This document shows positions 623-41,101 of a stretch of 64,000 bases of DNA, piece by piece. The notes beneath the pieces were generated by a model. The model saw only the letters and a program-made list of their open reading frames with translations. It did no database searches and was not told the DNA's origin. Every line of letters starts with the position of its first letter. The first letter of the stretch is position 1. The translations under genes and the position numbers were made by a program. The stretch lies in NCBI GenBank assembly GCA_016783545.1, contig JADHWJ010000002.1, positions 1,617 to 65,616 on the forward strand, written 5' to 3'. This DNA is from Candidatus Aenigmatarchaeota archaeon. Its GTDB lineage: Archaea; Aenigmatarchaeota; Aenigmatarchaeia; QMZP01.

Positions 623-1084
623 GTGAAGATGACAAACTGTTGGAGTTCTATCATGCGACAGCCTCTCCATATTGTGCTGGCTCTGGGTGTCTTTGCCGCG
701 GTTTGCGTTTATGCGCTTCTGGCAAGAGATGCCCGCGCGGACGTCGTAACAGCTAAGGACGTGGTGGCGATCACGAAGGCCGAGAAGGCAACAGTTGACA
801 CGGCGATTGAGTTGAAGATGACCAAGGCGCTCGATGAAGACATCGGGGCCAGCAGCACCCGGATGGCCGCAACGGAGAACGAGAAGAAGAGCAGCGACAG
901 TGCGAATGACGACAGCGTATTGGTAGTGGCGAACATCACCGGCGATGCCCGGGCGGCCCCTACAGCCAAGAAGCTGGCGAGCTCGAGCGACAGCACGGCG
1001 GCAAGAACGATCGAAGCCATCGGGATCGGCGGTGTGAACGACAAGACCCTGACAGCCGGCGCCGTGGCCTACGCCCTATTGTGA
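623..1084 (+). CDS. Orphan signal-anchored Ala/Thr/Asp-rich protein
   Basis: Hydrophobic N-terminal segment HIVLALGVFAAVCVYALLA; GC-rich codons; start could be 623, 629 or 653. Confidence 0.7.
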   Translation: MKMTNCWSSIMRQPLHIVLALGVFAAVCVYALLARDARADVVTAKDVVAITKAEKATVDTAIELKMTKALDEDIGASSTRMAATENEKKSSDSANDDSVLVVANITGDARAAPTAKKLASSSDSTAARTIEAIGIGGVNDKTLTAGAVAYALL

Positions 1085-1162
1085 GGAAGATGATCCTCTT
1101 TTGGGTATGGTCATGGTAAGAACTACCCCCCTCGGTCAGGACAGCTTCTGGCCGGGGGTAGT

Positions 1163-1211
1163 GGGGATAGGTGATGTTGACCTTGTGGTTCAAATCCACA
1201 TATCCCCTCCA
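1163..1211 (+). ncRNA. tRNA-like mini-structure (acceptor stem + T-arm + CCA, no D-arm)
   Basis: GGGGATA/TATCCCC 7-bp stem; TGTGG-TTCAAAT-CCACA T-arm; ends T-CCA. Confidence 0.5.
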
Positions 1212-1299
1212 ATTCGCCTCCGCCTCCCGGACAGGCGCAGCCCCAGATCAAGCGACACCCCAATATTCATGATGAGGTGGTGCTCGCTTGGTCTTTATA

Positions 1300-1316
1300 T
1301 TGTCATTTAAGCGGGA
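1300..1316 (+). repeat. Conserved site copy TTGTCATTTAAGCGGGA
   Basis: Matches the consensus TTGTCATYTTAANGGGA seen in 13 copies. Confidence 0.8.
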
Positions 1317-1377
1317 TATATATCATTGTCGAAAGGTAAAATTTACATTTAAAAGTATTATTGGATAAACATATCCT

Positions 1378-1911
1378 ATGATAGAAGTAAGAGTGCATGG
1401 AAGAGGAGGTCAGGGCGGAGTTACCTTTGTAGAGCTTTTGGCTAAGGCAGCTGGATTAGATGGAAAATATGTACAGGCGTTTCCAAGCTTTGGACCTGAA
1501 AGAACAGGTGCACCTGTCAAGGCATTTTGTAGAATAGATAATATACCAGTCACTTTGCGTTCCCAGATATATAGTCCTGATTTTGTGGTTGTTTTAGATC
1601 CCTCACTTTTGGATTTGCCAGAAGTTATTGAAGGAATAAAACCAGAGACAGTTATCATTGTAAACTCAGATAAAGGAATAGAACTGAATATAAAAAACAA
1701 AGTCTATACAATAGATGCTACAAAACTTGCCATGGAAATCCTTGGCAGGCCCATAACAAATACAGCAATGCTTGGTGCTTTCATAAAGGTTCTGGGATTG
1801 GTAAAATTGGAATCAGTTCTAAAAACAATTGATGAAAAGTTCCCAGAAAAGATTGCTGAGCCAAACAAGAAACTTATATCACAGTCATATGAGCTAATGG
1901 TGGTTGATTAA
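1378..1911 (+). CDS. porC: Pyruvate/2-oxoacid:ferredoxin oxidoreductase gamma subunit
   Basis: IRVHGRGGQG-type start, FGPERTGAP, NTAMLGA motifs. Confidence 0.95.
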   Translation: MIEVRVHGRGGQGGVTFVELLAKAAGLDGKYVQAFPSFGPERTGAPVKAFCRIDNIPVTLRSQIYSPDFVVVLDPSLLDLPEVIEGIKPETVIIVNSDKGIELNIKNKVYTIDATKLAMEILGRPITNTAMLGAFIKVLGLVKLESVLKTIDEKFPEKIAEPNKKLISQSYELMVVD

Positions 1912-2163
1912 ATGTCTAAAGTAGAAAACCTAGGTGTAATTGCGGAGCCTGGCTCTGCGAATAAAGACAAGAAGTCTGGATGGAGAACATTCAAACCAAA
2001 GATTAATGAAAAATGCACAAACTGTGGTTTTTGTGTTTCGTTTTGCCCAGAAGCTGGAATAACTATTGAAGGTGACAGGGCAAAGATAAATTATGATTAT
2101 TGCAAAGGCTGTATGATATGTGTTGATGTGTGCCCTTTGAAAGCAATAGAGGAGGAGAAATGA
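1912..2163 (+). CDS. porD: Pyruvate/2-oxoacid:ferredoxin oxidoreductase delta subunit (2x[4Fe-4S])
   Basis: WRTFKP, CxxCxxCxxxCP twice, DYCKGC. Confidence 0.95.
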   Translation: MSKVENLGVIAEPGSANKDKKSGWRTFKPKINEKCTNCGFCVSFCPEAGITIEGDRAKINYDYCKGCMICVDVCPLKAIEEEK

Positions 2164-8514: not shown

Positions 8515-8549
8515 TTAATACTTGGAATATGAGTATATAAAGTTTTTTC

Positions 8550-8566
8550 TCCCGTTAAGATGACAA
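8550..8566 (-). repeat. Conserved site copy TTGTCATCTTAACGGGA
   Basis: Preceded on the minus strand by a 9-bp hairpin (8570-8604) and followed by GAAAAAACTTTATA. Confidence 0.9.
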
Positions 8567-8614
8567 AATAACAGGACAGAAAGGGTCTCCCCAATTGTCC
8601 TGTTCAATCTTACC

Positions 8615-9034
8615 TTACCGCCGACAGACACCGCACACGGTTCTCCGCCCACAACGGCAAGACGATTGCCGGACCGTGCTGAGAATCTCAGCACGTAGTT
8701 TGTTCAGCTCAGCCTTGAGTTGGTCTCTGCAGACCAGCCTTTGCACGCAGGCCTTGATCTCCTCGATCTGGCACCTCATTTCCCTGAGACCAACATTGGA
8801 GCAGCCATGTGAGCATTGCCGCCTCGAACTCGGTGTGTTCACATAGTCGCTGAGAACAACCAGCGACCGTTCGACCCTGTTGAGGCGATCCAGAACCGAG
8901 CGGAGATCTGTCCTTTTGCATGATTCCTTGGGGCGGATCTTTATGACGATCTCCTCACCACCCCTTTCACAGATGTACCGCTCAGATCCGAACACTGACG
9001 AAACAGCGACCAAAAAAATCACCAAGCACTTCAT
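8615..9034 (-). CDS. Orphan secreted coiled-coil, Cys-rich protein (139 aa)
   Basis: AAAGGAGG RBS before MKCLVIFLVAVSSVFG signal peptide; C-terminal CRCGRRTVCGVCRR. Confidence 0.75.
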   Translation of the reverse strand: MKCLVIFLVAVSSVFGSERYICERGGEEIVIKIRPKESCKRTDLRSVLDRLNRVERSLVVLSDYVNTPSSRRQCSHGCSNVGLREMRCQIEEIKACVQRLVCRDQLKAELNKLRAEILSTVRQSSCRCGRRTVCGVCRR

Positions 9035-9279
9035 CGTCTTCCTCCTTTCCAAAGACTTCCCAAAGACTAAGAAACAGAAACCTTCCACATTCCTTCGATT
9101 AAGAAAAACAAATTCGCTTTGTAACTGATGTTTTGTGAGAGCTGTATAGCGTTTTACTGCAAATACGGCTAAGAATAATATTAAATGAAGAAATGATTTA
9201 TAAATGTTCTTGTGTTTGCAATATGCCGTAAAGGCTTTTTCGTGAACGTTTTTGAATAAATATAGCCCAATAAAAAGGT

Positions 9280-11160
9280 TCAAACTAGCCTGATTGCGTC
9301 CAAATTATGCGGAACAATTGTTTCAACCCTAAAGGAATTATGCATGTCTTTTGCAAGTTCCATTGATCTCTTTTTTTCACCGTGGTTAATTATGACTCTG
9401 TCTGGCTTGCTTGCAATATTCCTCACATAGCCCATTAATTGCCTTCTGCCAGAATGCCCTGTTAAACCTTCGATTGTTTCAACATTCATTTCCATTCTAA
9501 TCACTTTTGTTTTTCCACCTTCTGTTCTAACAGGAATCTCTTTCCAACCTTTCTGTATTTTTCTACCCATTGTTCCGATTCCTTGATAACCTACAAAAAC
9601 CAGTGTATTTTTCTTCTCAGACGCGAATGCCTTCAAATACTCCATAACAGGTCCTCCTGAAAGCATACCTGATGTTGATATAACAACACACGGATCTCCG
9701 GAATCTATTATATCTTTTCTGGTTTTTGGCACAACCCTGTGGAATATGTCAGAAATAAACGGATTCTTTCCATAATGAAATATATTTTTTTGAAGATGTC
9801 TTGAAAGATATTCAGGATATGCAGTATGTATGGCCGTTGCGTCCCATATCATGCCGTCTATGTAAACAGGATATTTGAAATTACTGTCAGCCAGTATACA
9901 CATGACTTCCTGTCCTCTACCAACAGCGAATGATGGTATCAGAACCTTCCCTCCATTCTCAACAGTCTTGTTTATGATGCTCATTAGATTTTCTTCAACC
10001 TGCTTTCTTGGAGGAAGTATATTATCTCTGCCACCGTAAGTTGATTCCATTATAAGAGTCTCAACCCTTTGGAAGTTCTTAAATGCGGGTTCAAAAAGCT
10101 TTGTGGGTCCAAATTTGAAGTCGCTTGTATAAACAACATTGTGCAGACCTTCACCAATATGTAAATGAACAAGAGCAGAACCAAGAAGATGGCCAGATGG
10201 CTGTAAAGTAAGCCTTGTGTCCGCAGCAACATCAGTAACCTCTCCGTAATTAAGTGCAATTGTATGTTTTATGGTTTTCTCTATTGCCTTTTTGTTATAG
10301 TAGAGCTGCTTGCCTTCTTTCTGAGCAACCTCTATATAATCCAGGCACATCAGAACAAGTAAATCCCTTACAGGTGGAGTGCAATATAATGGTCCTTTAA
10401 AGCCCTGATCATATAAAAACGGAACAGCAGCGCAATGGTCGTTGTGACTATGTGTTAAAACAACACAGTCCAGTTTTTCAAGATCAAATTCAGGAGCTTC
10501 TAAATGTGGAAGTCTGTTTGAGCCAGGGTCTATACCACAATCCATTAGTATGTTGGCATGCTTTGTCTGCAAAAGAACACTGCTCATCCCAACACCTCTT
10601 GCACCACCAAGGAAGCTAAGCCTTACCCATTCATTTCTTCTCTGTTCCTCTGTCAAAAAACTGGAACTCACTTCCTGCCCAATCTTATTGAGGAATTTCT
10701 TCCTGTAATCTATTTCAGAATGAAGAAGATTTCTAACAGCTCTTACAACTTCAGAATCTATTGCAGGCGCTCTTTCTATTTTAGGAAGCCAGAATGTGGT
10801 ATCTTTTATTTTTCTAAAAGTCTCACCTGATTTGCCTATTATAACACCTGGTTTTGAGCTCTCTATAACAACCTTTCCAAGCTCTGGTTCGAAATATATT
10901 GCCTTTATAACATCTTTGTCAGAAACAATTTTGTGTATCTCTTTTTCTGTTTTCTCAGGGTCCATCATGATACTCATGTCTGCTCTTACTTCTACTCTTT
11001 TCTTCAGGTCTCTTACAATATCCCTTACTTTGCTTTCACATGTTTTGAAAAATTCTTTATTTTTTGTGTAAAGGACTATGTTTGAGCCCTCGAATTTTAC
11101 TTCAGAAATCTTCGCATCTTTTGGAAGTTTCTTTTCCAATTCCTGTAATATGCTGTTCAT
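9280..11160 (-). CDS. fttA: Archaeal CPSF1/FttA beta-CASP ribonuclease with KH domains
   Basis: N-terminal KH region, THSHNDH, SGHLLGSA, MESTYGG, TSGMLSGGP, GHSGR; next to psmB. Confidence 0.95.
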   Translation of the reverse strand: MNSILQELEKKLPKDAKISEVKFEGSNIVLYTKNKEFFKTCESKVRDIVRDLKKRVEVRADMSIMMDPEKTEKEIHKIVSDKDVIKAIYFEPELGKVVIESSKPGVIIGKSGETFRKIKDTTFWLPKIERAPAIDSEVVRAVRNLLHSEIDYRKKFLNKIGQEVSSSFLTEEQRRNEWVRLSFLGGARGVGMSSVLLQTKHANILMDCGIDPGSNRLPHLEAPEFDLEKLDCVVLTHSHNDHCAAVPFLYDQGFKGPLYCTPPVRDLLVLMCLDYIEVAQKEGKQLYYNKKAIEKTIKHTIALNYGEVTDVAADTRLTLQPSGHLLGSALVHLHIGEGLHNVVYTSDFKFGPTKLFEPAFKNFQRVETLIMESTYGGRDNILPPRKQVEENLMSIINKTVENGGKVLIPSFAVGRGQEVMCILADSNFKYPVYIDGMIWDATAIHTAYPEYLSRHLQKNIFHYGKNPFISDIFHRVVPKTRKDIIDSGDPCVVISTSGMLSGGPVMEYLKAFASEKKNTLVFVGYQGIGTMGRKIQKGWKEIPVRTEGGKTKVIRMEMNVETIEGLTGHSGRRQLMGYVRNIASKPDRVIINHGEKKRSMELAKDMHNSFRVETIVPHNLDAIRLV

Positions 11161-13597: not shown

Positions 13598-13632
13598 ATA
13601 ATAAGATAAAATAACAGTTTATAAACACTTTA

Positions 13633-13649
13633 TCCCTTTAAAATGACAA
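13633..13649 (-). repeat. Conserved site copy TTGTCATTTTAAAGGGA
   Basis: Preceded by hairpin 13656-13688 and CTTTATA; followed by a TATA box. Confidence 0.9.
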
Positions 13650-13702
13650 TATAAAGAAGCCCTGTAAGATTGCTCAAACAGGGACTTCGTTGAGCCAACC
13701 TT

Positions 13703-28060: not shown

Positions 28061-28993
28061 TTATTTGATTTGATTCAGCTCTTCGTGAAAGCTTCTCCCA
28101 GCAGGGACCATGTCGTCTGTAACCCTGGGGTACTTCTCCCTTTTCTGTAGCAGACGGTTGGTGGCCTCTTCGAGTCGGTGTTTGAGCCCTTGCATGGGCT
28201 CATAAGAGGGCCTGGGCCAGATCAGGATACCACCATCCTTGAGAGAGTATGTGAGTCCGAAGGGCTCAAGGAGTATGGTTAGTATGGCACCAACAGACCC
28301 TTCGAGGCATTCCACCTGCTCGATCTTGATATGGTCCTCCCTATTGACCATCAGGTCGAAGGTCACCTTAAACCCCCCAATATCAGCTAGACCACTCACC
28401 AACTCTTCGAGTGTGATTGAAAGAGGGCTGGGCTGGAAGGTTATTTCCTTATCGAGCTTCTTCAAGAGATCGATCTTCCAACGCTGCTCTGAACCAAACT
28501 CTTTTTCCAGGTCCTCGTCCACCTTCATCTGGTAGAGTTTGTTGCAGATCTTAGTCCTCTCTTCAGCTGCTCGGAGTTGGGTAAAGAGCCGTGCCTCTCT
28601 CTTATTACGGGGCTCTTCCACAGCACTCTTCAGACTAGCTTTGGCTGTTTTGAGCTGTTCCTTAAGGCTCGCTTCAGTTGTCTGATACCCTTCGACCCTT
28701 TTGCGGAGATCCTCGAGCTCCTTTTGGGCTTGGTCCCTTTCCCCCTCTGCGATTCGGAGCATCTTGATGAAAGGGCCGTTGTGCTTGGCCTTTTCGAGTT
28801 TCTGGTTCTCTGCTGAGAGTCTCTTTACCTCGGTTCGAAGCTCAGCGAGCTCAGGTTCGTACTTGGCTTTCAGCTCTTCTCGAACCCGGTTTTCACCTTC
28901 CTTTACGAGCCGACTGACCTCCTCTTGGAGACCTAGATCACCCGCAAAGGCCAGTGCTGTGAAGCATAGTGATACAGCGATTCTTCTGTACAT
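28061..28993 (-). CDS. Secreted coiled-coil protein with STN/secretin-N-like domain
   Basis: Signal peptide MYRRIAVSLCFTALAFAG; TLEELV..ILTILLEPFGLTYSLKDGGILI. Confidence 0.75.
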   Translation of the reverse strand: MYRRIAVSLCFTALAFAGDLGLQEEVSRLVKEGENRVREELKAKYEPELAELRTEVKRLSAENQKLEKAKHNGPFIKMLRIAEGERDQAQKELEDLRKRVEGYQTTEASLKEQLKTAKASLKSAVEEPRNKREARLFTQLRAAEERTKICNKLYQMKVDEDLEKEFGSEQRWKIDLLKKLDKEITFQPSPLSITLEELVSGLADIGGFKVTFDLMVNREDHIKIEQVECLEGSVGAILTILLEPFGLTYSLKDGGILIWPRPSYEPMQGLKHRLEEATNRLLQKREKYPRVTDDMVPAGRSFHEELNQIK

Positions 28994-29005
28994 ATTAATC
29001 CTCCC

Positions 29006-29542
29006 TCAGAACACGATGAAATTGAATGCTCCTGTATAAGCAAATAGACTTGCTATTAGAAGCACCAATATCATCACCAGAATCCAGGCCATCTTACTTT
29101 TCGACATGGTCAGAGTAAACGACCGCCACCAGGTCCTCCTTATACCTGGTTCATCGACCCTCCTATTCACCATCAGCACACGTACTATGTATAGAAGACC
29201 ACCCACTATGGTTGCAATAATGCTCCAAAAGAGCACACCCATCTTCACTAGTGTGGATGGTTGTTGCTTCTTCAGATCATTGAGACTTAGAAGCCTTTCT
29301 TTTTCCTTGAGATGATTCTGAAGATCAGCTATCTTCTTGGCCTTTTCCTCGAGTCTGGCCAGACTTTCTGCTCCCTTCTGGTTAGCCTGCTCAAGCTGGG
29401 CAGAGAGTTTGGTGTTCTCTGCCCGGAGATGCTTGACCTCATTTTGGAGCTTCTCGTACTCTTTCTCGAATTCAGCTATCCGAGAGAGGTCGGGGTCTGC
29501 TGTTACTAGAAACTGTACGAGTAGAAACATTACGCTTTTCAT
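29006..29542 (-). CDS. Orphan coiled-coil protein with two C-terminal TM segments
   Basis: Short hydrophobic N-terminus, heptads, two hydrophobic segments. Confidence 0.75.
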   Translation of the reverse strand: MKSVMFLLVQFLVTADPDLSRIAEFEKEYEKLQNEVKHLRAENTKLSAQLEQANQKGAESLARLEEKAKKIADLQNHLKEKERLLSLNDLKKQQPSTLVKMGVLFWSIIATIVGGLLYIVRVLMVNRRVDEPGIRRTWWRSFTLTMSKSKMAWILVMILVLLIASLFAYTGAFNFIVF

Positions 29543-30096
29543 TGGCTACTCTCCTCTGGCAAAACATCGCCTAACAAATCACCGAGTATGATCCTTGGCT
29601 CATTCATAATCGTTCTCAGCCTATTTTCTGATAGTGCAATCTCCTTTTCAAAGGCCTTTCGCTGCCATATGGTAATACCTAACAATACAATGACCAATAC
29701 GATGAGATAGAGTCCGGCGAGGGCCATTATCCATTTCCTCTGGTTCGCAGCTTGCTGTATCACCCTATCTCTAGCCATCCTAGCTTCCTTAACCTCTTGG
29801 CTAAGGGTTACAATTGCCCTGTTAAGACCTCGGATCTCCTTTCCAAGGGCAATCTGGGTGGTTTTCAGCGTTTTCTCGGCCTTTACCCGGGCTTCTTGAG
29901 AAAAACTAAGCCCCCTCTCTGTTATGTCAAGTTGTTGATTGAGGTTCTTTAGCCTTTCATCAGCAACCCGGAGCTTCCCCTTGAGCTCCTGATTTTCGAT
30001 CTGGAGCCTTTTGAGCCCCTTCTCGAACCTGGTGATCGATTCTTCCCCATACACTGTAAGACAGAGTAGGGGAAATACCATAGCTATGCGATACAT
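29539..30096 (-). CDS. Orphan signal peptide + coiled-coil + TM protein
   Basis: MYRIAMVFPLLCLTVYG; TM WIMALAGLYLIVLVIVLLGITIW. Confidence 0.75.
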   Translation of the reverse strand: MYRIAMVFPLLCLTVYGEESITRFEKGLKRLQIENQELKGKLRVADERLKNLNQQLDITERGLSFSQEARVKAEKTLKTTQIALGKEIRGLNRAIVTLSQEVKEARMARDRVIQQAANQRKWIMALAGLYLIVLVIVLLGITIWQRKAFEKEIALSENRLRTIMNEPRIILGDLLGDVLPEESSQ

Positions 30097-30369
30097 CTGA
30101 TTTCCCCTTAAGACGAACAAAGGACTAAAGAAAGTCCCTGAGAAATGGAAATCTGGCTAAAAAAGTGAATTATGAGACAATTCTCTCTCTTATCTAACCA
30201 GATAGACATATACGAATAATCCAATAGGTTTTTACACTCTATTGGGCAATATGTGTGTTATGTGTAAGGGTATTTGGCACAAAACCGCTTAAAAGCGGTA
30301 TTTAGTGACCATTGAATAGTAACATTAGAAATAGTTATTTAAATACATTATTGTGTGAAAAAATCGTGT

Positions 30370-33300
30370 TTATGATGACTGAGGGATGGTATCAGGTTCC
30401 TGAGGAACTGTATCTGGTTCTTGGGGAACGGTATCCGGTTCTTGTGGGCTACCATCAGGTTCTTGGTCACCACCACCATCGCTCATAGTACTCCAACTAA
30501 CAGGACACGCAAGTCCACCGCAGCTGAATGTATTAAAGTCACACTCAGGAGTCTCTCCCCTTGGGCAGTCAACATCCTTTCCTTTAAAACTTGAAGCAAG
30601 TCTTGTCCAGAAGCTCTTCTCTGAACAGCATTTTATTCCACCAAATTCTAACTTAGTGCTCTTTGTATCAATTCTTTGGTATGTATAGTTTGCATTCCCT
30701 CTTAACACAAACGTCTTTGAAGGCACTTCTAGGTCTGTAAGGCCTTGTTTAAAGTAACAAGATGCAACATATACACCTTTCAGCTGGCTGAAAGCAGCTT
30801 TGTCCCATACCAGCTTATTACCATCTTTTCTTGGAGCAGGATAACAGTCATTTTCGTGGCTAAAGCCAGGAACATTTTCAAGGAATTCTCCAGGGAACTC
30901 CAGTTCTATGAATTTCATATCAGTAATGTTTCCTTTGTTTCCCTGTGCTCCGGCAAGATTTATATCCACACTGAAAGGCATTCCCTCTGTAATCGGCTGT
31001 TCCTGAGTGTCTATGTTAAGCCTTACAGGGGCGTTTGTAAGTGTTGCCGCCTTCTTTGCTACTGATACTATACCTTCCCTTGTCCTTCTATCCCATTCAT
31101 CCCTGCCCATGAACTCAATCTCAAAGCTTGAGTCTATCTTGTACTTGTACATCACTACGGCTGTTAATGGTATGAATTTCTCCCTTAGGTTAGTGGATAA
31201 TGTGGTTGCGCAATCTATCATATCTGTTGCAGGGAAGAATACCTCTGTTGAAGCTAATTTGTTTAGATTTCTGTCAGGTGTTTGCAGTGGCTGTTCACAA
31301 TATCCAGGAGTGCCTCTCCTGAAGTCGTCATCACCTATATTTGTATTATGACATGCAATTTCAAGTTCAGTGTCGTCTACAAATCCAAGCTGGCCTATAT
31401 TGATATAGGTTTCATCCCCAGGCGCCCAGCTCGGGTCGTAATGAAGCGGAGAGCTAATCCTTATAGATACCTCTTCTGCGTCGAACGCGCCCTTATTATC
31501 AAGCTTGAGAGAGACAGTGTATGGCCTGCAGACATAGATAAGGCTAGTTCTAAAGCTGGTTATTTCAATACCATATGCTCCTGCCAAGCCTGTGTCAGAG
31601 TCTGTTGCGTATGAACCATTCATCATCTGTTGGGCATAACCAACAGGGTTTGTCAATAGTTTCCATCCAGTTCCGAACATGCCACCAAAGCCTGTGAACA
31701 GCTCTGCTAGTGGTTTGAATACGTCAGAGAAGCCTGTATAAACAGTTGGGAACCAGTCTCCAAGTATTGCTCCGCCAACTTCCTGGGTGCCTGGACCGAA
31801 TGCATATATTACTGTAGCTGCGCCTAGCATAAGCATACCAACTTCTGCTCTGTTCTCTGTGGGCGCGAAGAACCCAGCCACAAACGTGACAAACCAGAAA
31901 TACAGGAAGAATCCCTTAAGTAAGCCGGTCAGCTCCCATCCAACCCCTCCAATCATCTGGAAAAGCCCTCCCATACCGATATCTCCGCTAAATACCATCA
32001 ACAGAGCAAGGACTATGAAAATTGGAGCGCCCATTGGTATTTTTGAAATAGCAAAAAGCAAGCCAATTCCAACAAATACAATTGCAATGGCCCAGCCTCC
32101 AAGTGCTCCAGAACCTATTAATGCAATTCCCATTAATAATGCAAAAACGAATTTCATTGGTATTTCGTAGAGTGACAGTCTTTCATCTACATCTGCTGTT
32201 GGCGCTCCGCCAGCGCCTCTGTTCGCATGCGGTGGCGCAATAAAGAATGCCCATGCTATAAGCGCAAGAACCCATGAATCAAAAATACTAAGGAACGCAA
32301 ATGGTATGAATGTACATCCCAGAATGAACCTGTATGTGGAATCTATAAACTGTGAAGGATTATATCTATCCCCTAAATCATATCCATGTGAATAGCTAAG
32401 ATAACCAACAAAAAGAGTTATTATTCCGAAAAGGTTGAAGAAAGGAATTTCACTTTTTACAAAAAGACCCATGAACCCTCCGCCCATGAAGCCTGCATAC
32501 ATTCCTATTATTGCTGCTGACTTGAAGAAACTCTTTGTGAAGGCCATGCTGTAGTGGTGCCTTCCTGGTCTGTCATGGTGCATGTCTGATACAGCTCTGT
32601 GTAAATTTCCACCATACCCTCTGAATGACCTGCCTATCCCTCTGCCCCAATGACCTACACGTCCGAATCCACCATGGCGTATATCGAGTCCGGTCAAATC
32701 CGCATCTCGTATGGCTCTATCATCTTCAGGTTGGTCTCCCATTGGCCAATAGTCTGCTGGGTTAGGGAACATGTAATAGGCTGCCCAAGAAAAGAATCCA
32801 ACTATAAACCAGAAGTTTCCGGTCATTGATGACACAATCAGGCCGATTGCTACTAATGCAATGGTGGGCATATAGTCCCTGATGCTCCAGTGGGAGTAGG
32901 CGTCTCTCCAATGGAGTTCGCCTCTTTCCTTTTTCTTTTCCTTTAATGTAAATGTTATCTTGTAAACATGGTTTTTACAGTCAACATCAACATTATATTC
33001 TTCTGGATCAGGATCATGGGTATTACATAAACATCTCACATCATATACATTAGCTACGTTTGTTAGGAATGTAAAGAATCTTACCTTTTTCTTTGCAGGC
33101 ACATCTGCCAGTTTAAATGTTGAATTGGTTGGTTGAGGATCACAATGAACACTTACATTTTCTGCTTCCAAATCACTGGCTTTATTATCAATATAAACTA
33201 CAATCTTACAGCCTGGGCCAGCGGGGCCAGCAGGAGGTGGACCACCAGGAGGACCACCAGGAGGACCAGCAGGAGGACCACCAGGACCAGCAGGAGGTGG

Positions 33301-34515
33301 AGCACCAGGAGGACCAGCAGGAGGACCACCAGGACCAGCAGGAGGTGGAGCACCAGGAGGACCACCAGGACCAGCAGGAGGTGGAGCACCAGGAGGACCA
33401 GCAGGAGGACCACCAGGACCAGCAGGAGGACCACCAGCAGGAGCAGGCGCTGCAGCAGCCGGGCCTCCAGTATAATGAGCAACTACAGAATAGTTCTGGT
33501 CCATTTTTATATCTATTTCAGAATCACCGGTGTACAGATCAACATCAGGTATTGTATGTGGTGGTACTCCTGGTTGCCGGGCTGCAAGACCATCTCTGAC
33601 ACCAGTTATTTTATTTGGAACTGCTGGTGGAGCTGGCATACCTGGACCAAATCTATTCTCTAATATATCACCAGGCCACAAATTAACACCGTTTACTGTC
33701 CAATGGTCAAAAGTATAACCCGGATTAGGTCTTTGATGAATAGTTACAACAGAATCCTTTGCAGGTTCTGATTTTCCGTGCAGATTAACCCAACCAGCTT
33801 TTTCAGGTGCTTCATTAACAGCAAGAATAACTTTACCAGGTGGAGGTACAGGAGCCGGAGCAGGTGCTGGAGGAGGCGGAGCAGGAGCGGGTGGAGGAGG
33901 TTGCAATTGAAAATATGCTACGATGGTAGTATCTGCATTTAAATTAACGATTCTGGCCGGGTTGACGGATCCATCTTCCCATTTTTGAAAGACATAAAGG
34001 TTTCCACCAATAGCAACATTGTTATTGACAATGATATTTTTTACACCAGCCTTTAGTTTACCCTTATATGTGGTTGTTTTAGATGAACCATCTAGTGTAA
34101 AAGGAACACCTTTCATCGGCAAAGAATCAACAACCAATGTAAATTTATTTCCACCACCAGCACAACTACCAGTTGCTGTTATACTAATTTTTTTTGTTGC
34201 TAAAACTTTAGCGTTACTATCAATAACTTCAATAGTGATAACATGCTCACCTGGTACTATACCTGTTTTTGCATGGATATTTAATCCATTAGTGAAAAGA
34301 CCAGTATTATTTATGAGTTGTGCTGAATCATATATTCCATCTGTTCTTTCTGGTGGTTCAACCGACCCAAACCATGCAATAAGTTTTGGAAGAGATTTTA
34401 TTCTGATATCTATTAATTCATTTTGTGGTCCCCTGACATTGAATCCTAAAGTACTAGGTTTGCAAATTTTTACATTTGTTTTAGATACAGTGCTAATTTC
34501 TGCTAAACTAGGCAA
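30370..34515 (-). CDS. Large surface/membrane protein with Ig-like domains, Pro/Gly repeats and multi-pass core
   Basis: 1381-aa ORF, GGTGA RBS before TTG; InlB-B-repeat-like GYTFDHWTVNG; PGGPP repeats; many TM segments; LKLDNKGAFDA CARDB-like segment. Confidence 0.8.
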   Translation of the reverse strand: MPSLAEISTVSKTNVKICKPSTLGFNVRGPQNELIDIRIKSLPKLIAWFGSVEPPERTDGIYDSAQLINNTGLFTNGLNIHAKTGIVPGEHVITIEVIDSNAKVLATKKISITATGSCAGGGNKFTLVVDSLPMKGVPFTLDGSSKTTTYKGKLKAGVKNIIVNNNVAIGGNLYVFQKWEDGSVNPARIVNLNADTTIVAYFQLQPPPPAPAPPPPAPAPAPVPPPGKVILAVNEAPEKAGWVNLHGKSEPAKDSVVTIHQRPNPGYTFDHWTVNGVNLWPGDILENRFGPGMPAPPAVPNKITGVRDGLAARQPGVPPHTIPDVDLYTGDSEIDIKMDQNYSVVAHYTGGPAAAAPAPAGGPPAGPGGPPAGPPGAPPPAGPGGPPGAPPPAGPGGPPAGPPGAPPPAGPGGPPAGPPGGPPGGPPPAGPAGPGCKIVVYIDNKASDLEAENVSVHCDPQPTNSTFKLADVPAKKKVRFFTFLTNVANVYDVRCLCNTHDPDPEEYNVDVDCKNHVYKITFTLKEKKKERGELHWRDAYSHWSIRDYMPTIALVAIGLIVSSMTGNFWFIVGFFSWAAYYMFPNPADYWPMGDQPEDDRAIRDADLTGLDIRHGGFGRVGHWGRGIGRSFRGYGGNLHRAVSDMHHDRPGRHHYSMAFTKSFFKSAAIIGMYAGFMGGGFMGLFVKSEIPFFNLFGIITLFVGYLSYSHGYDLGDRYNPSQFIDSTYRFILGCTFIPFAFLSIFDSWVLALIAWAFFIAPPHANRGAGGAPTADVDERLSLYEIPMKFVFALLMGIALIGSGALGGWAIAIVFVGIGLLFAISKIPMGAPIFIVLALLMVFSGDIGMGGLFQMIGGVGWELTGLLKGFFLYFWFVTFVAGFFAPTENRAEVGMLMLGAATVIYAFGPGTQEVGGAILGDWFPTVYTGFSDVFKPLAELFTGFGGMFGTGWKLLTNPVGYAQQMMNGSYATDSDTGLAGAYGIEITSFRTSLIYVCRPYTVSLKLDNKGAFDAEEVSIRISSPLHYDPSWAPGDETYINIGQLGFVDDTELEIACHNTNIGDDDFRRGTPGYCEQPLQTPDRNLNKLASTEVFFPATDMIDCATTLSTNLREKFIPLTAVVMYKYKIDSSFEIEFMGRDEWDRRTREGIVSVAKKAATLTNAPVRLNIDTQEQPITEGMPFSVDINLAGAQGNKGNITDMKFIELEFPGEFLENVPGFSHENDCYPAPRKDGNKLVWDKAAFSQLKGVYVASCYFKQGLTDLEVPSKTFVLRGNANYTYQRIDTKSTKLEFGGIKCCSEKSFWTRLASSFKGKDVDCPRGETPECDFNTFSCGGLACPVSWSTMSDGGGDQEPDGSPQEPDTVPQEPDTVPQEPDTIPQSS
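33215..33465 (-). repeat. Low-complexity tandem repeat encoding (P/A)GGPP
   Basis: Iterated CCAGCAGGAGGACCACCAGGA units. Confidence 0.9.
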
Positions 34516-34577
34516 TTAATCACCGATTAATTATTAGGTTAGAACAAGTTAAATAATTAGTAAAGTTCTTTAATGGG

Positions 34578-34949
34578 TTAAGCTGTTTGATAAAGTTCCA
34601 TCTGAGCAGAATTTGTATCTTCGTCTCTAAGACCTCTTCCGCCTCTTCGTCTTGCTCTGTTTCTGAGATAAATAGCACCGCCTGTTAGAGCTAAACCCGC
34701 AGCAACTGAACCATAAAGAATAGGGTGTTCTACAATTTCCTTGTAGTAACCCATACTATCATCGGGCATTAATGCTGTGAAAGCATTGGCTGGCCATCTT
34801 AGATAAAATGGAAGACTGTCTATTTCATTTTCTATGTATTGAGAAACACCTACCCAACCACCTAGAGCTGTACCTGATGCAGCTACAGTTGCACCTGCCA
34901 ATCTCTTACCCCTTTTCCACATAGAATCTCTGGGTTTTCTTTTAGCCAT
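34578..34949 (-). CDS. Orphan two-TM membrane protein
   Basis: MAKRKPRDS start with TATA upstream; two hydrophobic Gly/Ala-rich segments. Confidence 0.65.
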   Translation of the reverse strand: MAKRKPRDSMWKRGKRLAGATVAASGTALGGWVGVSQYIENEIDSLPFYLRWPANAFTALMPDDSMGYYKEIVEHPILYGSVAAGLALTGGAIYLRNRARRRGGRGLRDEDTNSAQMELYQTA

Positions 34950-35110
34950 ATTTGTCACTATCCTATAGTAACAATTAGAATATGTATTTAAATACTTATA
35001 TAACGCTGTTATATGGCTCTGAAACCTATCAGAGAACTGAATAGCCTTTTGCATCTCATTTGTTGAGTAGCAGATATTATTAATTTAAACAAAGAAACCA
35101 AAGAATAATT

Positions 35111-37935: not shown

Positions 37936-38156
37936 AATGTATTTTTAAATCAAAAAATAATGATAATATATCTGCCTCCTGAATTTTCAAAGATCCAATG
38001 GTTTTCTATAATAGATTTGAAACGTTCAAAGAGATATGCAAATCTTTGTTTGCATGTACTTTGAAAAAAATTTCAAAGAGAATAAGATCGTTTCAGCTCT
38101 ATTTCTCTATTTTTCCTGGTTTCTGATGACTTTTCACTGTCTTTGGAGGAAGAGCT

Positions 38157-38306
38157 ATGGACTTGGAGTTCTGGTTTTTCGTTATTCTTGCTATGAGTCT
38201 TATCCTCAACATCGTTCTGATTATCGTGGCTCTTGGGCAAAGGACCAGGATCACGAATCTAGAAGATGACTTGGATATCTCAGAATCACACGCAGATGAG
38301 CGGTAG
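38157..38306 (+). CDS. 49-aa single-pass membrane protein (not in ORF track)
   Basis: GGAGGA RBS; MDLEFWFFVILAMSLILNIVLIIV. Confidence 0.7.
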   Translation: MDLEFWFFVILAMSLILNIVLIIVALGQRTRITNLEDDLDISESHADER

Positions 38307-38332
38307 ATTTCCGCTACATCAGGAGGAGAATT

Positions 38333-38488
38333 ATGGATTGGACGATCTGTTTTCTGGTCGCGAGCGTTGGTCTGAACATCGTGTTGTTGGTTGTCGTTCG
38401 TCGCAAAAACAGGGAAAATCAGGCCCTTTTGGATGAACTGGGAAGCCTGAGAACTGATCGTAGATCAACATTCGAATTCAGGAGGTGA
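38333..38488 (+). CDS. 51-aa single-pass membrane protein, paralog of 38157-38306 (not in ORF track)
   Basis: AGGAGG RBS; MDWTICFLVASVGLNIVLLVVV. Confidence 0.7.
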   Translation: MDWTICFLVASVGLNIVLLVVVRRKNRENQALLDELGSLRTDRRSTFEFRR

Positions 38489-38491
38489 ATC

Positions 38492-38674
38492 GTGGATGAC
38501 CGTGAAAATCTCAAAGAACAGATCCGCTGGAAGAACGAGCGGATAGCGACGTTGGAGGAGCGCGTGAAGGCACTCCAGGAACGAACAGAGGAGCTGGAAA
38601 CCCAGAATGCCGCATTGGGCAGAGAACTTGGGCGGCTGAGAGAGGAAAGGAGTTTGAAAGCTCTTACGAGCTGA
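38492..38674 (+). CDS. Small coiled-coil protein
   Basis: AGGAGGT RBS, GTG start, heptad repeats. Confidence 0.65.
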   Translation: MDDRENLKEQIRWKNERIATLEERVKALQERTEELETQNAALGRELGRLREERSLKALTS

Positions 38675-38684
38675 GGAGACAAAT

Positions 38685-39008
38685 ATGCATGTGAAGAAGG
38701 CAGATGTAATCGCGTTGATTGTCGGGGCCTTTGTCATCGTTGTGGTCTTTATCATATGTAACTGGGCGAATAGCTTGTTCTCGGTTTACAAGTGCAAACC
38801 CTGTATGGTGAAGGCTGTAAACGAGAGCAAGAGCAACTATAAGGAGAGAATCGGCGTTGAACTGACAGTTGTCTACGAGACCGGCGAGGAGAAGAGAGAG
38901 ACGCTCTACAAGCCGGATTGGTGGCTTCTGGACAAGAATATCCTGAAGCCGGGTGTGAAGCTTCCGCTGAAGAAGCCGAAAGCTTTCATACCGGCAAGGA
39001 CACGATAG
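38685..39008 (+). CDS. Orphan membrane-anchored protein
   Basis: GAGGAG RBS; TM VIALIVGAFVIVVVFIIC. Confidence 0.7.
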   Translation: MHVKKADVIALIVGAFVIVVVFIICNWANSLFSVYKCKPCMVKAVNESKSNYKERIGVELTVVYETGEEKRETLYKPDWWLLDKNILKPGVKLPLKKPKAFIPARTR

Positions 39009-39016
39009 GAGAGAAC

Positions 39017-39475
39017 ATGAAAAAAGTGCGCGGATTTACCCTAATTGAGTTGTTGTTCTGTGTTGCGATCCTTGCGATCTTGGTTGCTGTATTCCTACCG
39101 ATGTTCGTCAAATCAGCCAACAAAAAGCTCACAGAGAGGGCACAGGAGTTCGCAAAAAACCCGCCCATCGAGGACAATCTCCTGTTCTCCAACAAAGACG
39201 GTCGGGTGGAGATGTATACCGGTAACCTCGACATGCTGGGAATCAGCTTCAGCAGGACCAAGACAGGATATGATGCCATGATCTGTGGTAGGATGAGTGA
39301 GAGGATGAAAGACATTGTCCTCATAGTCTGGAAGACAACTGGCGAGGTCATTCTTTACCCAGACAGGAAGAAGCTGGGAGACAATGTCTATCTCTGGAAA
39401 GTTGTCTATCTTCCGAAGGTCAATATTGAGAAGATTGACGTTCCGAATGACAGCCGTTCACCTACGAAGGGGTGA
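39017..39475 (+). CDS. Bacterial-type prepilin N-terminal cleavage/methylation domain protein
   Basis: MKKVRG-FTLIELLFCVAILAILVAVFLP with Glu at +5. Confidence 0.85.
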   Translation: MKKVRGFTLIELLFCVAILAILVAVFLPMFVKSANKKLTERAQEFAKNPPIEDNLLFSNKDGRVEMYTGNLDMLGISFSRTKTGYDAMICGRMSERMKDIVLIVWKTTGEVILYPDRKKLGDNVYLWKVVYLPKVNIEKIDVPNDSRSPTKG

Positions 39476-39517
39476 ACCATGGGGATATGTGTTGGATGAC
39501 ACTAATTCCCCATTACT

Positions 39518-39569
39518 ATGTCTTATTAACGGGATATATATAAAAATAGTTATCCCTTTTAAATGACAA
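39518..39569. repeat. Two conserved sites head-to-head (39518-39534 +, 39553-39569 -)
   Basis: ATGTCTTATTAACGGGA and TTGTCATTTAAAAGGGA separated by 18 AT-rich bp. Confidence 0.85.
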
Positions 39570-41101
39570 TGTAAGTAAGTCCAGGAGGATAGGGCGGGCT
39601 ACCACTGGACTTGTTTGCTACCTTTGAATCTTCCTCCGGGCGCGTCTGGCAATCGCCTGGAGGATGATCAACCTCAGGTTTGCCCTTCGTAGCGGGTCGA
39701 ACATACCAGTCCAACCAAAGGCTTCGATGAAGTGTTCAATGGCTTGGATTTCCCTTCGTAGGTCAAAGCCCACGGCGTTCGAGACCTGTGCCTCAACCTT
39801 TTCTTCAGGGAATTTGACCCCGTTAACGGACTTGACTAGTTCTTCCGCTAAGCTTGCCTGTAGGTATTCGGTAGTTTTGGCAATCAGCCTTGCGCGCCAG
39901 TTCTCTTCCATCAGTCCTAGGGTCTGTCGGAGGTACTCATCGTACCCACACCGTGCCAGGGTGGTTCCCAGCTCGAGTAGGGCGTACTGCTTTTGCTGTC
40001 CCCTCAGTTCAGCCACAGCATCGCTGAGGGTCTGATGATTAAAATTTTCACTAGAATTCATACTTCGGAGGATGATCCGGCCCTGGACCTTACCGACAGT
40101 GGTTTGGAGGTGTTTCTGGAGACTCTCCACCGGTTTAGTGTCCTCCCCAACGAGTTCGTACATGAGTTGGACTATTCCCTGGTCCAGGACAACCAAGGAG
40201 TCGGTGTAGTCACTAGATCCATGGGTATAGGCCAGGCCAGAGAATTGGGTCAGTAGCCCATGGGCCATCTTCGCTATCCTGCCCAGTTGGATTATGACAT
40301 GGACCATCTCGATGAAGCTTTTCCGTTGGACTCTCCGGTCCCCGATTTTGAAGAGCTTCACCGTGTTCTCGTAGAGCTGTCTATTATCATGTGAGTAGAG
40401 CAATGTGAGAACCTCTACTTTGATCGCAGCGACCCTAGATATTGCCAGATCATTCTGGGGTTGCAGGTCTTTGAACATATCGATGATCGGAACGCAGTCA
40501 TTACCCATCTCGCTTATCCCAAGGACTAACCATTTCAGAGCTTCGGCCTTGGAGACTGGGTCATTGATAGCAATTTGCCTTCCAGAAACAATCAGATTAG
40601 GCCAGGCAAACTGCCAGACATCCGAACAGGCCTTGCAGACACCTGCTAGGATATTGTCAGCGCTCTTGACATCTGGCCTATCTTCAGGCAAAGATGCCAG
40701 GTCAATTCTGATCATCTCGACAAGTCGTCGGAAAAGACTCTGCATGTCGAAGGTTGACTCATACTTATCCACGATCCACTGTGCCTGACCTCTGGAGATG
40801 TTTCCATTAGACATCAGATGGGTAATCTCAGCCACCTGTTTCATCGTCGCCGGCTTGCTTTCCAGCAAGTTCTTAGGTTTCATCTTTTTCTCCTTTGACA
40901 AATACCTATTAACCAAGCGCACCCCGCCGCACGGTTGGAATAGAGGTATTTGCCCAAAGACACCTCCCAGATGAAAAAGAGGCGCCTGGCCAAAAGAAAC
41001 GACGATCCGGACCACCCGGATTTTAGTTGTTTTCTTTCCAAAAGACAGCAGAAACCAGATGAGAAAGAGTCCTTTATTTAGAAGGTTCCGCAGGTTCTCT
41101 A
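39553..41101 (-). mobile_element. GC-rich island 9 (one orphan helical gene)
   Basis: Gene, hairpin 39577-39612, site; TAGAGAAC near the 5' edge. Confidence 0.5.
39618..40883 (-). CDS. Orphan alpha-helical protein (421 aa)
   Basis: AAAGGAG RBS before MKPKNLLESKPATMKQ; long open frame. Confidence 0.75.
   Translation of the reverse strand: MKPKNLLESKPATMKQVAEITHLMSNGNISRGQAQWIVDKYESTFDMQSLFRRLVEMIRIDLASLPEDRPDVKSADNILAGVCKACSDVWQFAWPNLIVSGRQIAINDPVSKAEALKWLVLGISEMGNDCVPIIDMFKDLQPQNDLAISRVAAIKVEVLTLLYSHDNRQLYENTVKLFKIGDRRVQRKSFIEMVHVIIQLGRIAKMAHGLLTQFSGLAYTHGSSDYTDSLVVLDQGIVQLMYELVGEDTKPVESLQKHLQTTVGKVQGRIILRSMNSSENFNHQTLSDAVAELRGQQKQYALLELGTTLARCGYDEYLRQTLGLMEENWRARLIAKTTEYLQASLAEELVKSVNGVKFPEEKVEAQVSNAVGFDLRREIQAIEHFIEAFGWTGMFDPLRRANLRLIILQAIARRARRKIQR

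What the first reader, a model, noticed from the sequence alone, without database searches (positions are those of the whole stretch)
623..40883. Island cargo is almost all bacterial-style exported or membrane protein: possible host-directed arsenal
Seen: about 16 of 18 island ORFs have a signal peptide or TM segment, usually with coiled coils, and most have a strong AGGAG(G) RBS and GC-rich codons. Many core genes here are AT-rich with the TATA box close to the start codon. Known: DPANN archaea are host-dependent. Inference: the cargo could be captured from a GC-rich bacterial host or neighbour (surface mimicry, attachment), or kept host-like because the RNA or DNA is meant to be expressed in the host. 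The flanking leader, hairpins and tRNA mimic would fit the second idea, which is speculative.
Basis: inference. Interest (0 to 1): 0.7.

Follow-up and report, generated by a model that had tools for sequence, protein, structure and literature searches.

The report
Foreign GC-rich gene cassettes in DPANN archaeon
A tiny AT-rich symbiotic archaeon carries about 28 short GC-rich patches of foreign, bacterial-looking genes, each ending at the same 26-base site derived from a jumping-gene end; in this window they encode mostly surface or secreted proteins, but nothing shows that they are weapons made for expression inside a host.

Summary
The span 623-40883 is not one island. It is core archaeal genes interrupted by eight GC-rich patches (45-66% GC, against 36% for the genome).

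- 14 of 15 GC-rich ORFs have a signal peptide or TM segment, against 31% of native genes.
- 9-11 of 15 have a strong Shine-Dalgarno site, against 26% of native genes, which are mostly leaderless.
- Contigs from two independent metagenome studies span the junctions at even depth, so this is not a chimera.
- Genome-wide the export bias disappears (7 of 22 elsewhere, where the cargo includes sugar enzymes, an SDR and VIT-VWA). The Shine-Dalgarno bias holds (70%).

The tested window cargo is ORFan: i15 has no hit among 1.84 billion representatives. Cargo with homologs has bacterial best hits at about 61% identity (Planctomycetota and others).

Each island ends in a hairpin plus a motif that matches the left inverted repeat of a zinc-ribbon IS6-family element. 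A conserved DDE-less Zn-HTH protein co-occurs with the motif across the family.

Best reading: recently captured foreign cassettes docked at IS6-derived sites. "Captured from bacteria" is partly supported. "From the host" and "expressed in the host" have no support.

The parts
345..1291 (+). Island 1. Leader at 345-470. ORF i01 at 629-1084 (151 aa, signal/TM, GC3 0.72). GC-rich 3' UTR with a tRNA-like minihelix ending in CCA (about 1163-1211) and a terminal hairpin.
1292..1323 (+). 3' site (IS6 IRL-like motif TTTATATTGTCATTTAAGCGGGATATATAT), directly upstream of the porG promoter.
8543..9280 (-). Island 2. ORF i02 at 8615-9034 (139 aa, signal peptide, Cys-rich, strong SD). Hairpin and motif at 8543-8576.
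13628..14101 (-). Island 3. ORF i03 at 13703-14101 (3 TM, GC3 0.50). Hairpin and motif at 13628-13658.
14186..14494 (-). Native-composition Zn-ribbon/HTH protein of 102 aa. It is homologous to the N-terminal DNA-binding part of zinc-ribbon IS6-family transposases and has no DDE domain. It is the candidate binder of the motif.
14562..15830 (-). ORF-less GC-rich island (14594-15740) with the leader at 15690-15830 and the motif at 14562-14593. It shows no codon periodicity and has no Rfam match.
21780..22431 (+). Island 4. ORF i04 at 21947-22324 (1 TM). Motif at 22400-22431.
22400..23745 (+). Two AT-rich toxin-antitoxin cassettes (22463-22943 and 23018-23569), separated by direct copies of the motif at 22400, 22948 and 23706.
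23750..28008 (+). Island 5 (58% GC). ORF i05 at 24514-25086 (TM). ORF i06 at 25191-26153 (SP). ORF i07 at 26260-26754 (SP). ORF i08 at 26880-27239 (TM). ORF i09 at 27236-27826 (lipoprotein-type signal LLVGC). Degenerate motif at 27982-28008.
28003..30300 (-). Island 6, tail to tail with island 5. ORF i10 at 28061-28993 (SP plus long helices). ORF i11 at 29006-29542 and ORF i12 at 29539-30120 (SP plus coiled coil plus TM). Degenerate motif at 28003-28032.
38100..39540 (+). Island 7. ORF i13 at 38685-39008 (TM). ORF i14 at 39017-39475, a bacterial-type prepilin (RG|FTLIELL, N_methyl 3e-8). Motif at 39508-39540.
39548..41100 (-). Island 8, tail to tail with island 7. ORF i15 at 39618-40883 (421 aa, all-alpha, strong SD). 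It is the only non-exported cargo and has no homolog anywhere. Motif at 39548-39575.
30370..35054 (-). Not foreign. The 1381-aa multi-TM protein with PAGPPG repeats (30370-34515) and the 158-aa TM protein (34578-35054) have native codon composition.
13187..13597 (-). Not GC-rich. A 136-aa protein with a bacterial RNA-polymerase alpha C-terminal domain and native GC3 of 0.20. It sits just after a motif copy.

Best explanation
**What it is.** The GC-rich patches are recently acquired foreign gene cassettes of bacterial type. They sit in the chromosome of an AT-rich Aenigmatarchaeota (DPANN) archaeon.

**Anatomy of a cassette.**
- An AT-rich archaeal promoter and a leader.
- One to five ORFs with Shine-Dalgarno sites and GC-rich codons.
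- A stable hairpin.
- Then, 2-5 nt later, a conserved site of about 26 nt (TTATATTGTCAnTTAAGAGGGATATA).

**The site.** It matches the left terminal inverted repeat plus promoter region of a zinc-ribbon IS6-family insertion sequence. The island always abuts the outer tip of that repeat.

**The associated protein.** A family-conserved, DDE-less Zn-ribbon/HTH protein corresponds to the DNA-binding N-terminus of that transposase. It is encoded beside one site and co-occurs with the site across genera.

**Inferred mechanism.** The sites act as docking points at which incoming DNA is integrated. This resembles IS26 translocatable units inserting next to an existing IS end, or cassettes entering an integron. 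Arrays, tail-to-tail pairs and singletons upstream of native promoters build up in this way.

**The cargo.** It is whatever the source pool supplies. In this window mainly envelope proteins were retained: Sec and lipoprotein signals, a prepilin, coiled-coil membrane proteins. If they are expressed, they most likely decorate the archaeon's own surface. Elsewhere in the genome the cargo includes cytoplasmic enzymes and gene fragments.

**Shown:** the foreign composition, the junctions in independent assemblies, the motif-island association, the IS6 origin of the motif, the conserved Zn-HTH protein and the bacterial affinity of the cargo that has homologs.

**Inferred:** the integration mechanism, expression, and a surface role.
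For: **Composition and gene syntax**
- GC and GC3 contrast between islands and native genes.
- SD-led island ORFs, 23 of 33, against 26% of native genes (p=6e-7).
- Leaderless native genes.

**The islands are real**
- Logan contigs of a 2020 aquatic study and a 2024 marine study cross the AT/GC junctions at even depth, about 13x and about 4-5x.

**Motif and islands**
- nhmmer finds about 43 motif copies at E<=0.1. 28 of them are directly preceded by an island, about 36 kb in total.
- The hairpin ends 2-5 nt before the motif in about 23 of 27 islands. Median dG is -16.5 and z is -2.8, against -7.2 and -0.5 at copies without an island.
- The same motif occurs in 14 of 41 related genomes, with almost no matches to the control pattern.
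- In the AT-rich relative G008, all 14 copies follow GC-rich islands that carry SD-led, often lipoprotein or signal-peptide ORFs.

**The motif is an IS6 end**
- In Woesearchaeota, LFW-280 and Methanoperedens MAG contigs, it is the outer end of a repeat whose first gene is the Zn-HTH homolog.
- L099 is a complete element with IRL and IRR and an IS6-type DDE C-terminus.

**The Zn-HTH protein**
- About 100 aa, single-copy, in at least 21 of 47 family genomes.
- It co-occurs with the motif (10/1/2/11, p=6e-4).

**Foreign and bacterial cargo**
- N_methyl prepilins.
- The 564-aa island enzyme has more than 3000 homologs. All the named ones among the top 120 are bacterial: Planctomycetota, Phycisphaerae, Armatimonadota, Omnitrophota and others.
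- Window cargo is absent from 90 genomes of the same order.

**A compositional class of their own**
- Random halves of the islands correlate at r=0.90.
- Islands against native DNA give 0.56, and against GC-rich relatives 0.61-0.69.
- G000 islands against G008 islands give 0.79.
Against: - No DDE transposase of the IS6 type (PF13610) exists in any of 12 motif-bearing genomes. No integron integrase exists either. The catalyst of integration is therefore unknown.
- The 5' ends of the islands have no consistent repeat.
- An orthologous 'empty' porG locus in a relative shows only a weak motif-like element. The CPSF locus is not syntenic. Targeting of a pre-existing site is therefore not demonstrated.
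- No donor was found. i10 and i15 have no homolog anywhere.
- The best bacterial identity for other cargo is only about 61%. For a recent transfer, that requires an unsampled donor lineage.
- Some cargo looks fragmentary: half an MFS transporter and a split PfkB. This argues against selection for function.
- Expression is untested.
- The export enrichment is not genome-wide.
Confidence: 0.6

Rival explanations
1. The cassettes do not come from bacterial chromosomes. They belong to a lineage-specific mobile gene pool of these archaea, such as an unsampled plasmid, virus or other extrachromosomal element. This pool would have its own GC-rich composition and circulate among Aenigmatarchaeota genera.
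For: - The tested window cargo is ORFan.
- The islands have a reproducible tetranucleotide signature (halves r=0.90).
- The signature is shared between two genera (r=0.79) although they share no genes.
- The same end site is used family-wide.
- TA cassettes use the same site.
Against: - No PHROG hit of substance.
- Cargo with homologs is ordinary bacterial metabolism with bacterial best hits.
- No replication, capsid or conjugation genes were seen in any island.
Confidence: 0.25
2. Host-directed arsenal. The cassettes keep bacterial codons, SD sites and terminators because their RNA or DNA is delivered to a bacterial host and expressed there.
For: - Bacterial gene syntax in an archaeon whose own genes are mostly leaderless.
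- Composition is not ameliorated, although the best bacterial identity is only about 61%.
Against: - No delivery machinery, toxin or effector domain was found.
- The leader is not general.
- The tRNA mimic is not significant.
- The 3' site is an IS end.
- Cargo elsewhere consists of housekeeping-type enzymes and gene fragments.
- Sec signals would be pointless for proteins made inside a host cytoplasm. This last point rests on my own knowledge.
Confidence: 0.04
3. Assembly or binning artefact: GC-rich bacterial fragments were mis-joined into an AT-rich MAG.
For: - Sharp GC steps.
- The MAG is only 70% complete.
Against: - Contigs from two independent studies span the junctions at equal depth. 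Only 2 differences were listed over 20 kb, one of them in only one run.
- Every island ends at the same motif.
- The same architecture occurs in other genera.
Confidence: 0.02
4. The adjacency arises by selection, not by targeting. The motif would be only a native promoter or insulator element bound by the Zn-HTH protein. Foreign DNA would insert at random and survive only where such an element shields the downstream gene.
For: - The motif lies 5-10 nt upstream of the TATA box of native genes such as porG.
- 15 copies have no island.
- No transposase is present.
Against: - Tail-to-tail motif pairs have no gene behind them (27982/28032 and 39508/39575).
- The hairpin-to-motif distance is constant.
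- All 14 of 14 motif copies in G008 carry islands.
Confidence: 0.09

Closest known systems
Integron gene cassettes, including the archaeal CALINs of Ghaly et al. 2022 (PMC9668308)
   Same: - Small, mostly ORFan cassettes: one or a few ORFs followed by a hairpin of variable sequence and a short conserved core.
- Direct arrays.
- TA cassettes among them.
- Signal-peptide proteins are enriched. The published figures are 13.2% against 6.9% in archaeal cassettes and 16.1% against 6.8% in metagenomic cassettes.
- Cross-domain gene flow.
   Different: - No GTTRRRY/RYYYAAC boxes in the site (sequences).
- No IntI.
- Sites are dispersed upstream of core-gene promoters rather than gathered in one array.
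- Islands carry their own archaeal promoter.
- The Aenigmatarchaeota MAG with a published CALIN (JAFCEM01, my G006) has no array of this motif.
IS6/IS26-family insertion sequences and IS26 translocatable units (mechanism from my own knowledge: Harmer, Moran and Hall 2014)
   Same: - The site is the IRL of a zinc-ribbon IS6-family element.
- Cargo lies against the outer tip of the repeat.
- Direct repeats of the end separate successive cargo segments, as in IS26 arrays.
   Different: - Only a solo end of about 26 nt remains.
- No DDE transposase exists in 12 genomes.
- A stand-alone DNA-binding domain is conserved instead.
- A hairpin precedes each end.
- Target duplications were not examined.
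IS6-like cargo transposons and transposase-less IS6-type cassettes noted earlier in this scan in other DPANN genomes (AI notes)
   Same: - IS6-type ends.
- Position just upstream of TATA boxes.
- One noted case carries a GC-rich, truncated bacterial membrane gene.
   Different: - Those elements have two inverted ends and lie inside them. Here the islands lie outside a single end and have no inverted partner.
Inferred bacterial-to-Aenigmarchaeota horizontal transfers (Li et al. 2021, PMC8407114)
   Same: - Bacterial genes in Aenigmarchaeota genomes.
- Identities to bacterial homologs are low (about 42% there, about 61% here).
   Different: - Those transfers were judged ancient.
- Here the composition is not ameliorated, the genes are species-specific, and they are tied to a specific site.

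Membership tests
Integron (cassette plus attC plus IntI) | attC site with R''/R' core boxes (RYYYAAC ... GTTRRRY) | tested here: not met
   The conserved block is TTATATTGTCAnTTAAGAGGGATA. No GTTRRRY appears on either strand in the roughly 43 aligned copies. This was judged by inspection. IntegronFinder's attC model was not available.
Integron (cassette plus attC plus IntI) | Integron integrase IntI (TIGR02249, with its extra domain) | tested here: not met
   The best match scores 124 bits against a cut-off of 265. Matches skip profile positions of about 178-235.
Integron (cassette plus attC plus IntI) | ORF(s) followed by an imperfect hairpin; cassettes arrayed in one orientation | tested here: met
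   A hairpin is present at about 23 of 27 island ends. Direct arrays occur at 15900-13628 (-) and 22400-28008 (+).
IS6/IS26-family insertion sequence | Terminal inverted repeats of the family | tested here: met
   The motif equals the IRL of a complete IS6-like element in L099, which has IRL GATATTGTCAACTTAAAGGGATA and IRR GATATTGTCAAGTTATCGATA. It forms multi-copy ends in other archaeal MAGs.
IS6/IS26-family insertion sequence | DDE transposase (PF13610 / NF033587) | tested here: not met
   No PF13610 match in 12 motif-bearing genomes, with positive controls. The window ORF 14186-14494 matches only profile positions 3-53 of 202 of NF033587, at E=3e-5, below the cut-off.
IS6/IS26-family insertion sequence | 8-bp target-site duplication; two inverted ends around the mobile DNA | tested here: not met
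   No inverted partner was found at the 5' ends of the islands. Duplications were not examined.
Bacterial type IV pilin / T2SS pseudopilin | Prepilin N-terminal cleavage/methylation motif G|FTLIE plus a hydrophobic helix | tested here: met
   i14: PF07963 at 2.9e-8 (above the cut-off) and TIGR02532 at 4.4e-6. Two more are at C6:4270-5429. The globular part has no match.
tRNA-targeting genomic island (integrase plus tRNA gene) | Adjacent tRNA gene and tyrosine integrase | tested here: not met
   No tRNA gene in the window. The three tyrosine recombinases lie on other contigs. The tRNA-like minihelix is not significant.
Host-directed effector or toxin arsenal | Recognisable toxin, effector or injection-system domains, or delivery signals | tested here: not met
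   No such family in Pfam, NCBIfam or PHROGs for the cargo proteins scanned: all but i14 in Pfam, and subsets of them in NCBIfam and PHROGs. The PDB search of i10 and i15 found nothing significant. AF2 models were too poor for a fold search.

The most novel reading that the evidence does not exclude
Aenigmatarchaeota of this family run an integron-like gene-capture system built from a domesticated insertion sequence. A DDE-less Zn-ribbon/HTH protein, the old IS6 transposase DNA-binding domain, marks dispersed solo IS ends. At these ends hairpin-terminated cassettes from one recurrent GC-rich bacterial-type source are integrated by an unknown catalyst and expressed from archaeal promoters. The source could be the physical partner. 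The system would supply a fast-turnover set of envelope proteins for cell-cell contact.
Probability: 0.25. Interest if true: 0.8.

Novelty: new variant of a known kind. Interest (0 to 1): 0.6.

Why it matters
DPANN archaea depend on other cells, and for Aenigmatarchaeota the partners are unknown. About 4% of this 0.9-Mb genome is un-ameliorated foreign DNA with bacterial gene syntax, docked at one specific site type. A relative from another genus has the same arrangement.

- **A handle on the partner.** The islands' shared oligonucleotide signature and their genes can be used to look for the donor in the same samples.
- **A route for cross-domain gene flow.** The system works without an integron integrase or a resident transposase. 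It may therefore be a second, IS-derived way for small genomes to sample foreign surface proteins.
- **A warning for MAG curation.** Filters based on GC or tetranucleotide outliers would remove exactly these regions.

Tried and rejected
- **RNA annotations.** Rfam at gathering and at E<=1, and ARAGORN, found nothing for the leader, the tRNA mimic or the ORF-less island.
- **Homology of window cargo.** i15 and i10 gave no hits in the word-based search. i15 gave no hits in the full HMMER search of 1.84 billion representatives. There are no paralogs in the genome and no matches to relatives' islands. PHROGs and PDB sequence searches were empty.
- **Structure.** AF2 single-sequence models of i10 and i15 had pLDDT 50 and 48, so no fold search was run.
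- **Reverse-transcriptase capture of mRNAs.** The two RTs are DGR-type (IGNLTSQ motif). They are absent from some motif-bearing genomes. I dropped this idea.
- **Published Aenigmatarchaeota CALIN.** It is not made of this motif.
- **Synteny search for empty sites.** The porG locus gave one weak motif-like element in G012. The CPSF locus gave nothing.
- **Synteny of the C1 island with a Phycisphaerae contig.** None.
- **RNA runs.** None listed.
- **Consensus terminator scan.** It did not pick up the island-end hairpins, because of its loop and stem limits.
- **Single-donor claim from tetranucleotides.** Rejected. Leave-one-out values (median about 0.63) lie only slightly above the cross-genome controls (0.46-0.58).

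Full report
**Setting**

The window is C12:1617-65616 of an 886-kb, 18-contig MAG with 35.9% GC. Earlier notes of this scan place it in the Aenigmatarchaeota. That fits the named relatives carrying the same motif. One same-family relative, G006, is the JAFCEM01 MAG, which Ghaly et al. list under order and family QMZP01.

**The span is not one island**

The span 623-40883 contains ordinary archaeal genes:
- pyruvate:ferredoxin oxidoreductase, with an intein in the alpha subunit;
- an ABC transporter;
- a CPSF-type nuclease;
- a proteasome beta subunit;
- a HerA-like ATPase;
- a Pelota/aRF1-like protein.

Between them lie eight GC-rich patches of 0.4-4 kb with 45-66% GC.

**Check of the observation**

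- I curated 15 ORFs with GC3 of 0.50-0.75. The genome median is 0.29.
- 14 of them have an N-terminal signal-like segment or at least one TM segment. The exception is i15. The native rate is 217 of 691 genes (p=1.3e-6).
- The signals include AXA-type Sec signals, one lipobox (LLVGC, i09) and one bacterial prepilin motif (RG|FTLIELL, i14; PF07963 2.9e-8, TIGR02532).
- Strong Shine-Dalgarno sites precede 9 of 15, or 11 of 15 with better start choices for i05 and i12. The native rate is 26% (p=0.007).
- Native genes have a sharp TATA-like peak at -30 to -26 from the start codon, which means many leaderless genes.
The GC peak at 33.2-33.5 kb is a PAGPPG repeat.

**The islands are real**

Logan contigs of a 2020 aquatic run and of 2024 marine runs cover the region. 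Single contigs cross the AT/GC junctions, for example 23716-25126, 26187-33284, 35508-41400 and 29908-30747. Depth is even. Only two differences were listed over 20 kb, and one of them is seen in only one run. Contigs break only at the repeated motif.

**The export bias is local**

Other islands carry different cargo:
- a xylose-isomerase-like TIM barrel, Gfo/Idh/MocA, an ACP, a split PfkB and a fucose-isomerase-like protein (C1);
- a 934-aa VIT-VWA protein (C13);
- an SDR (C14);
- half an MFS transporter (C4);
- a Big_9 secreted protein (C16);
- a signal-bearing M54 peptidase (C2);
- two more prepilins (C6).

With automated calls, island ORFs outside the window are 7 of 22 TM/SP, the native rate. 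The SD bias holds at 23 of 33 against 26% (p=6e-7). Pooled with the curated window set, the figure is 21 of 37 (p=0.002). In relative G008 it is about 15 of 24 (p=0.003). Published integron cassettes show a similar, milder enrichment.

**Origin of the cargo**

- i15 and i10 have no homolog in the 5.8-billion-cluster search. i15 has none among 1.84 billion representatives searched by full HMMER.
- A concatenate of ten window proteins matches none of 90 other genomes of the order. There are no paralogs and no matches in relatives' islands.
- The tested window cargo is therefore species-specific and ORFan, not vertically inherited archaeal genes.
- For cargo with homologs the affinity is bacterial. 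The 564-aa C1 protein has more than 3000 relatives, and the best are about 61% identical. Every named one among the top 120 is bacterial: Planctomycetota, Phycisphaerae, Armatimonadota, Omnitrophota, Caldiserica and Calescamantes.
- No near-identical donor copy was found. These collections hold the proteins of this MAG's own contigs (the self-hits). I did not establish whether they hold the rest of the source metagenome.
- Li et al. used the same kind of low identity to argue against bacterial hosts for Aenigmarchaeota. Here the un-ameliorated GC3 argues for recent arrival from an unsampled source.

**Composition**

- Pooled island halves correlate at r=0.90 in tetranucleotide usage. Same-genome calibration gives 0.92-0.94.
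- Islands against native DNA give 0.56, against GC-rich relatives 0.61-0.69, and against a Phycisphaerae contig 0.48.
- G000 islands against G008 islands give 0.79, while G008 islands against their own genome give 0.39.
- Leave-one-out values (median about 0.63) are only a little above the cross-genome controls. One donor cannot be told from a stable mixture.

**What delimits the islands**

- Every island ends in a stable hairpin. 2-5 nt later comes TTATATTGTCAnTTAAGAGGGATATA.
- 28 of about 43 motif copies follow an island, about 36 kb in total.
- The remaining copies flank AT-rich TA cassettes or precede native genes.
- Two pairs of islands meet tail to tail at facing motifs (27982/28032 and 39508/39575).
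- The motif occurs in 14 of 41 relatives, and the control pattern gave almost no matches. In AT-rich G008 all 14 copies follow GC-rich islands.

**The motif is an IS6 end**

A scan of species-representative genomes showed the same sequence at the outer end of a multi-copy repeat in other archaeal MAGs. Its first gene is a homolog of window ORF 14186-14494. In a Woesearchaeota contig the element is complete, with IRL, IRR and an IS6-type DDE C-terminus. The motif is therefore the IRL plus promoter of a zinc-ribbon IS6-family element, and the islands abut its outer tip.

**The conserved protein, and what is missing**

- The 102-aa Zn-HTH protein is conserved as a stand-alone gene of about 100 aa in at least 21 of 47 family genomes.
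- It co-occurs with the motif (p=6e-4).
- No IS6 DDE domain exists in 12 motif-bearing genomes.
- No IntI exists.
- The reverse transcriptases are DGR-type.

**Interpretation**

The best-supported reading is capture of foreign, bacterial-type cassettes at IS6-derived docking sites. This is analogous to IS26 translocatable units or integron cassettes, with an unknown catalyst. The envelope-protein content of this window is real, but it is not a general property of the system.

The idea that the cassettes are meant to be expressed in a host has no support:
- the leader is shared clearly by two islands only;
- the tRNA mimic is not significant;
- no effector-like domain or delivery system was found.

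Earlier AI notes on IS6-like cargo elements in other DPANN genomes fit the IS6 link. They describe two-ended elements, unlike the one-ended arrangement here.

Noticed in passing
window 2130-4859 (+): The PFOR alpha-subunit gene (909 aa) carries a large insertion with LAGLIDADG-type motifs (LLGLMFSDGC ... GYFDGDGS). This looks like an intein with a homing endonuclease. The insertion is very AT-rich (23-29% GC).
   Followed up: no
window 14594-15740 (-): A 1.15-kb GC-rich (53%) island with no ORF longer than 89 aa. It has no codon-position GC periodicity and no Rfam match even at E<=1. Its tetranucleotide usage differs from the other islands (r=0.33). It has the shared leader and the 3' site, so it may be a non-coding RNA cargo.
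   Followed up: partly
window 1163-1211 (+): A minihelix with a 7-bp acceptor-like stem, a GTGGTTCAAATCCAC T-arm-like hairpin and a terminal CCA, in the 3' UTR of i01. ARAGORN and Rfam do not call it, and its fold is no better than shuffles (z=-0.49).
   Followed up: partly
window 13187-13597 (-): A 136-aa protein with a bacterial RNA polymerase alpha C-terminal domain (PF03118, 6e-11) and native AT-rich codons, in an archaeon. Only one weak relative was found in 47 family genomes.
   Followed up: partly
window 25092-25151 and 26157-26216: A 60-nt repeat, 97% identical, follows both i05 and i06. It consists of a hairpin plus AAAGGGAGG. The two proteins share a C-terminal module (RELREVGLK...) and an acidic tail, so they are a local duplication inside island 5.
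   Followed up: no
window 30370-34515 (-): A 1381-aa multi-pass membrane protein of native composition. It has a long (P/A/G)-rich repeat (33191-33490) and an InlB B-repeat-like domain. It is probably a surface protein of the archaeon itself.
   Followed up: no
window 22463-23569 (+): Two RelE/ParE-like toxin-antitoxin pairs, each bounded by the IS6-end motif. This arrangement resembles the TA cassettes of chromosomal integrons.
   Followed up: partly
L060, L061, L107, L120 (Ca. Methanoperedens MAG JAPZAO01 contigs): Four contigs end in the same IS6-like left end (GA|TATTGTCAATTTAAAGGGATA + TATTTAAATA + Zn-HTH gene). About 90% identical copies occur in the uncultured archaeon LFW-280. This points to a multi-copy element shared between distant archaea, or to mis-binned contigs.
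   Followed up: partly
genome C17:2142-3197 and C16:43487-44566: Two reverse transcriptases with the DGR-type IGNLTSQ motif. A short GC-rich stretch lies just upstream of the C17 copy.
   Followed up: no
genome C4:25680-26333 and C1:20994-21880: Island cargo that looks truncated or frameshifted. One is half an MFS transporter (profile positions 35-182 of 347). The other is a PfkB-like kinase split over two overlapping ORFs.
   Followed up: partly
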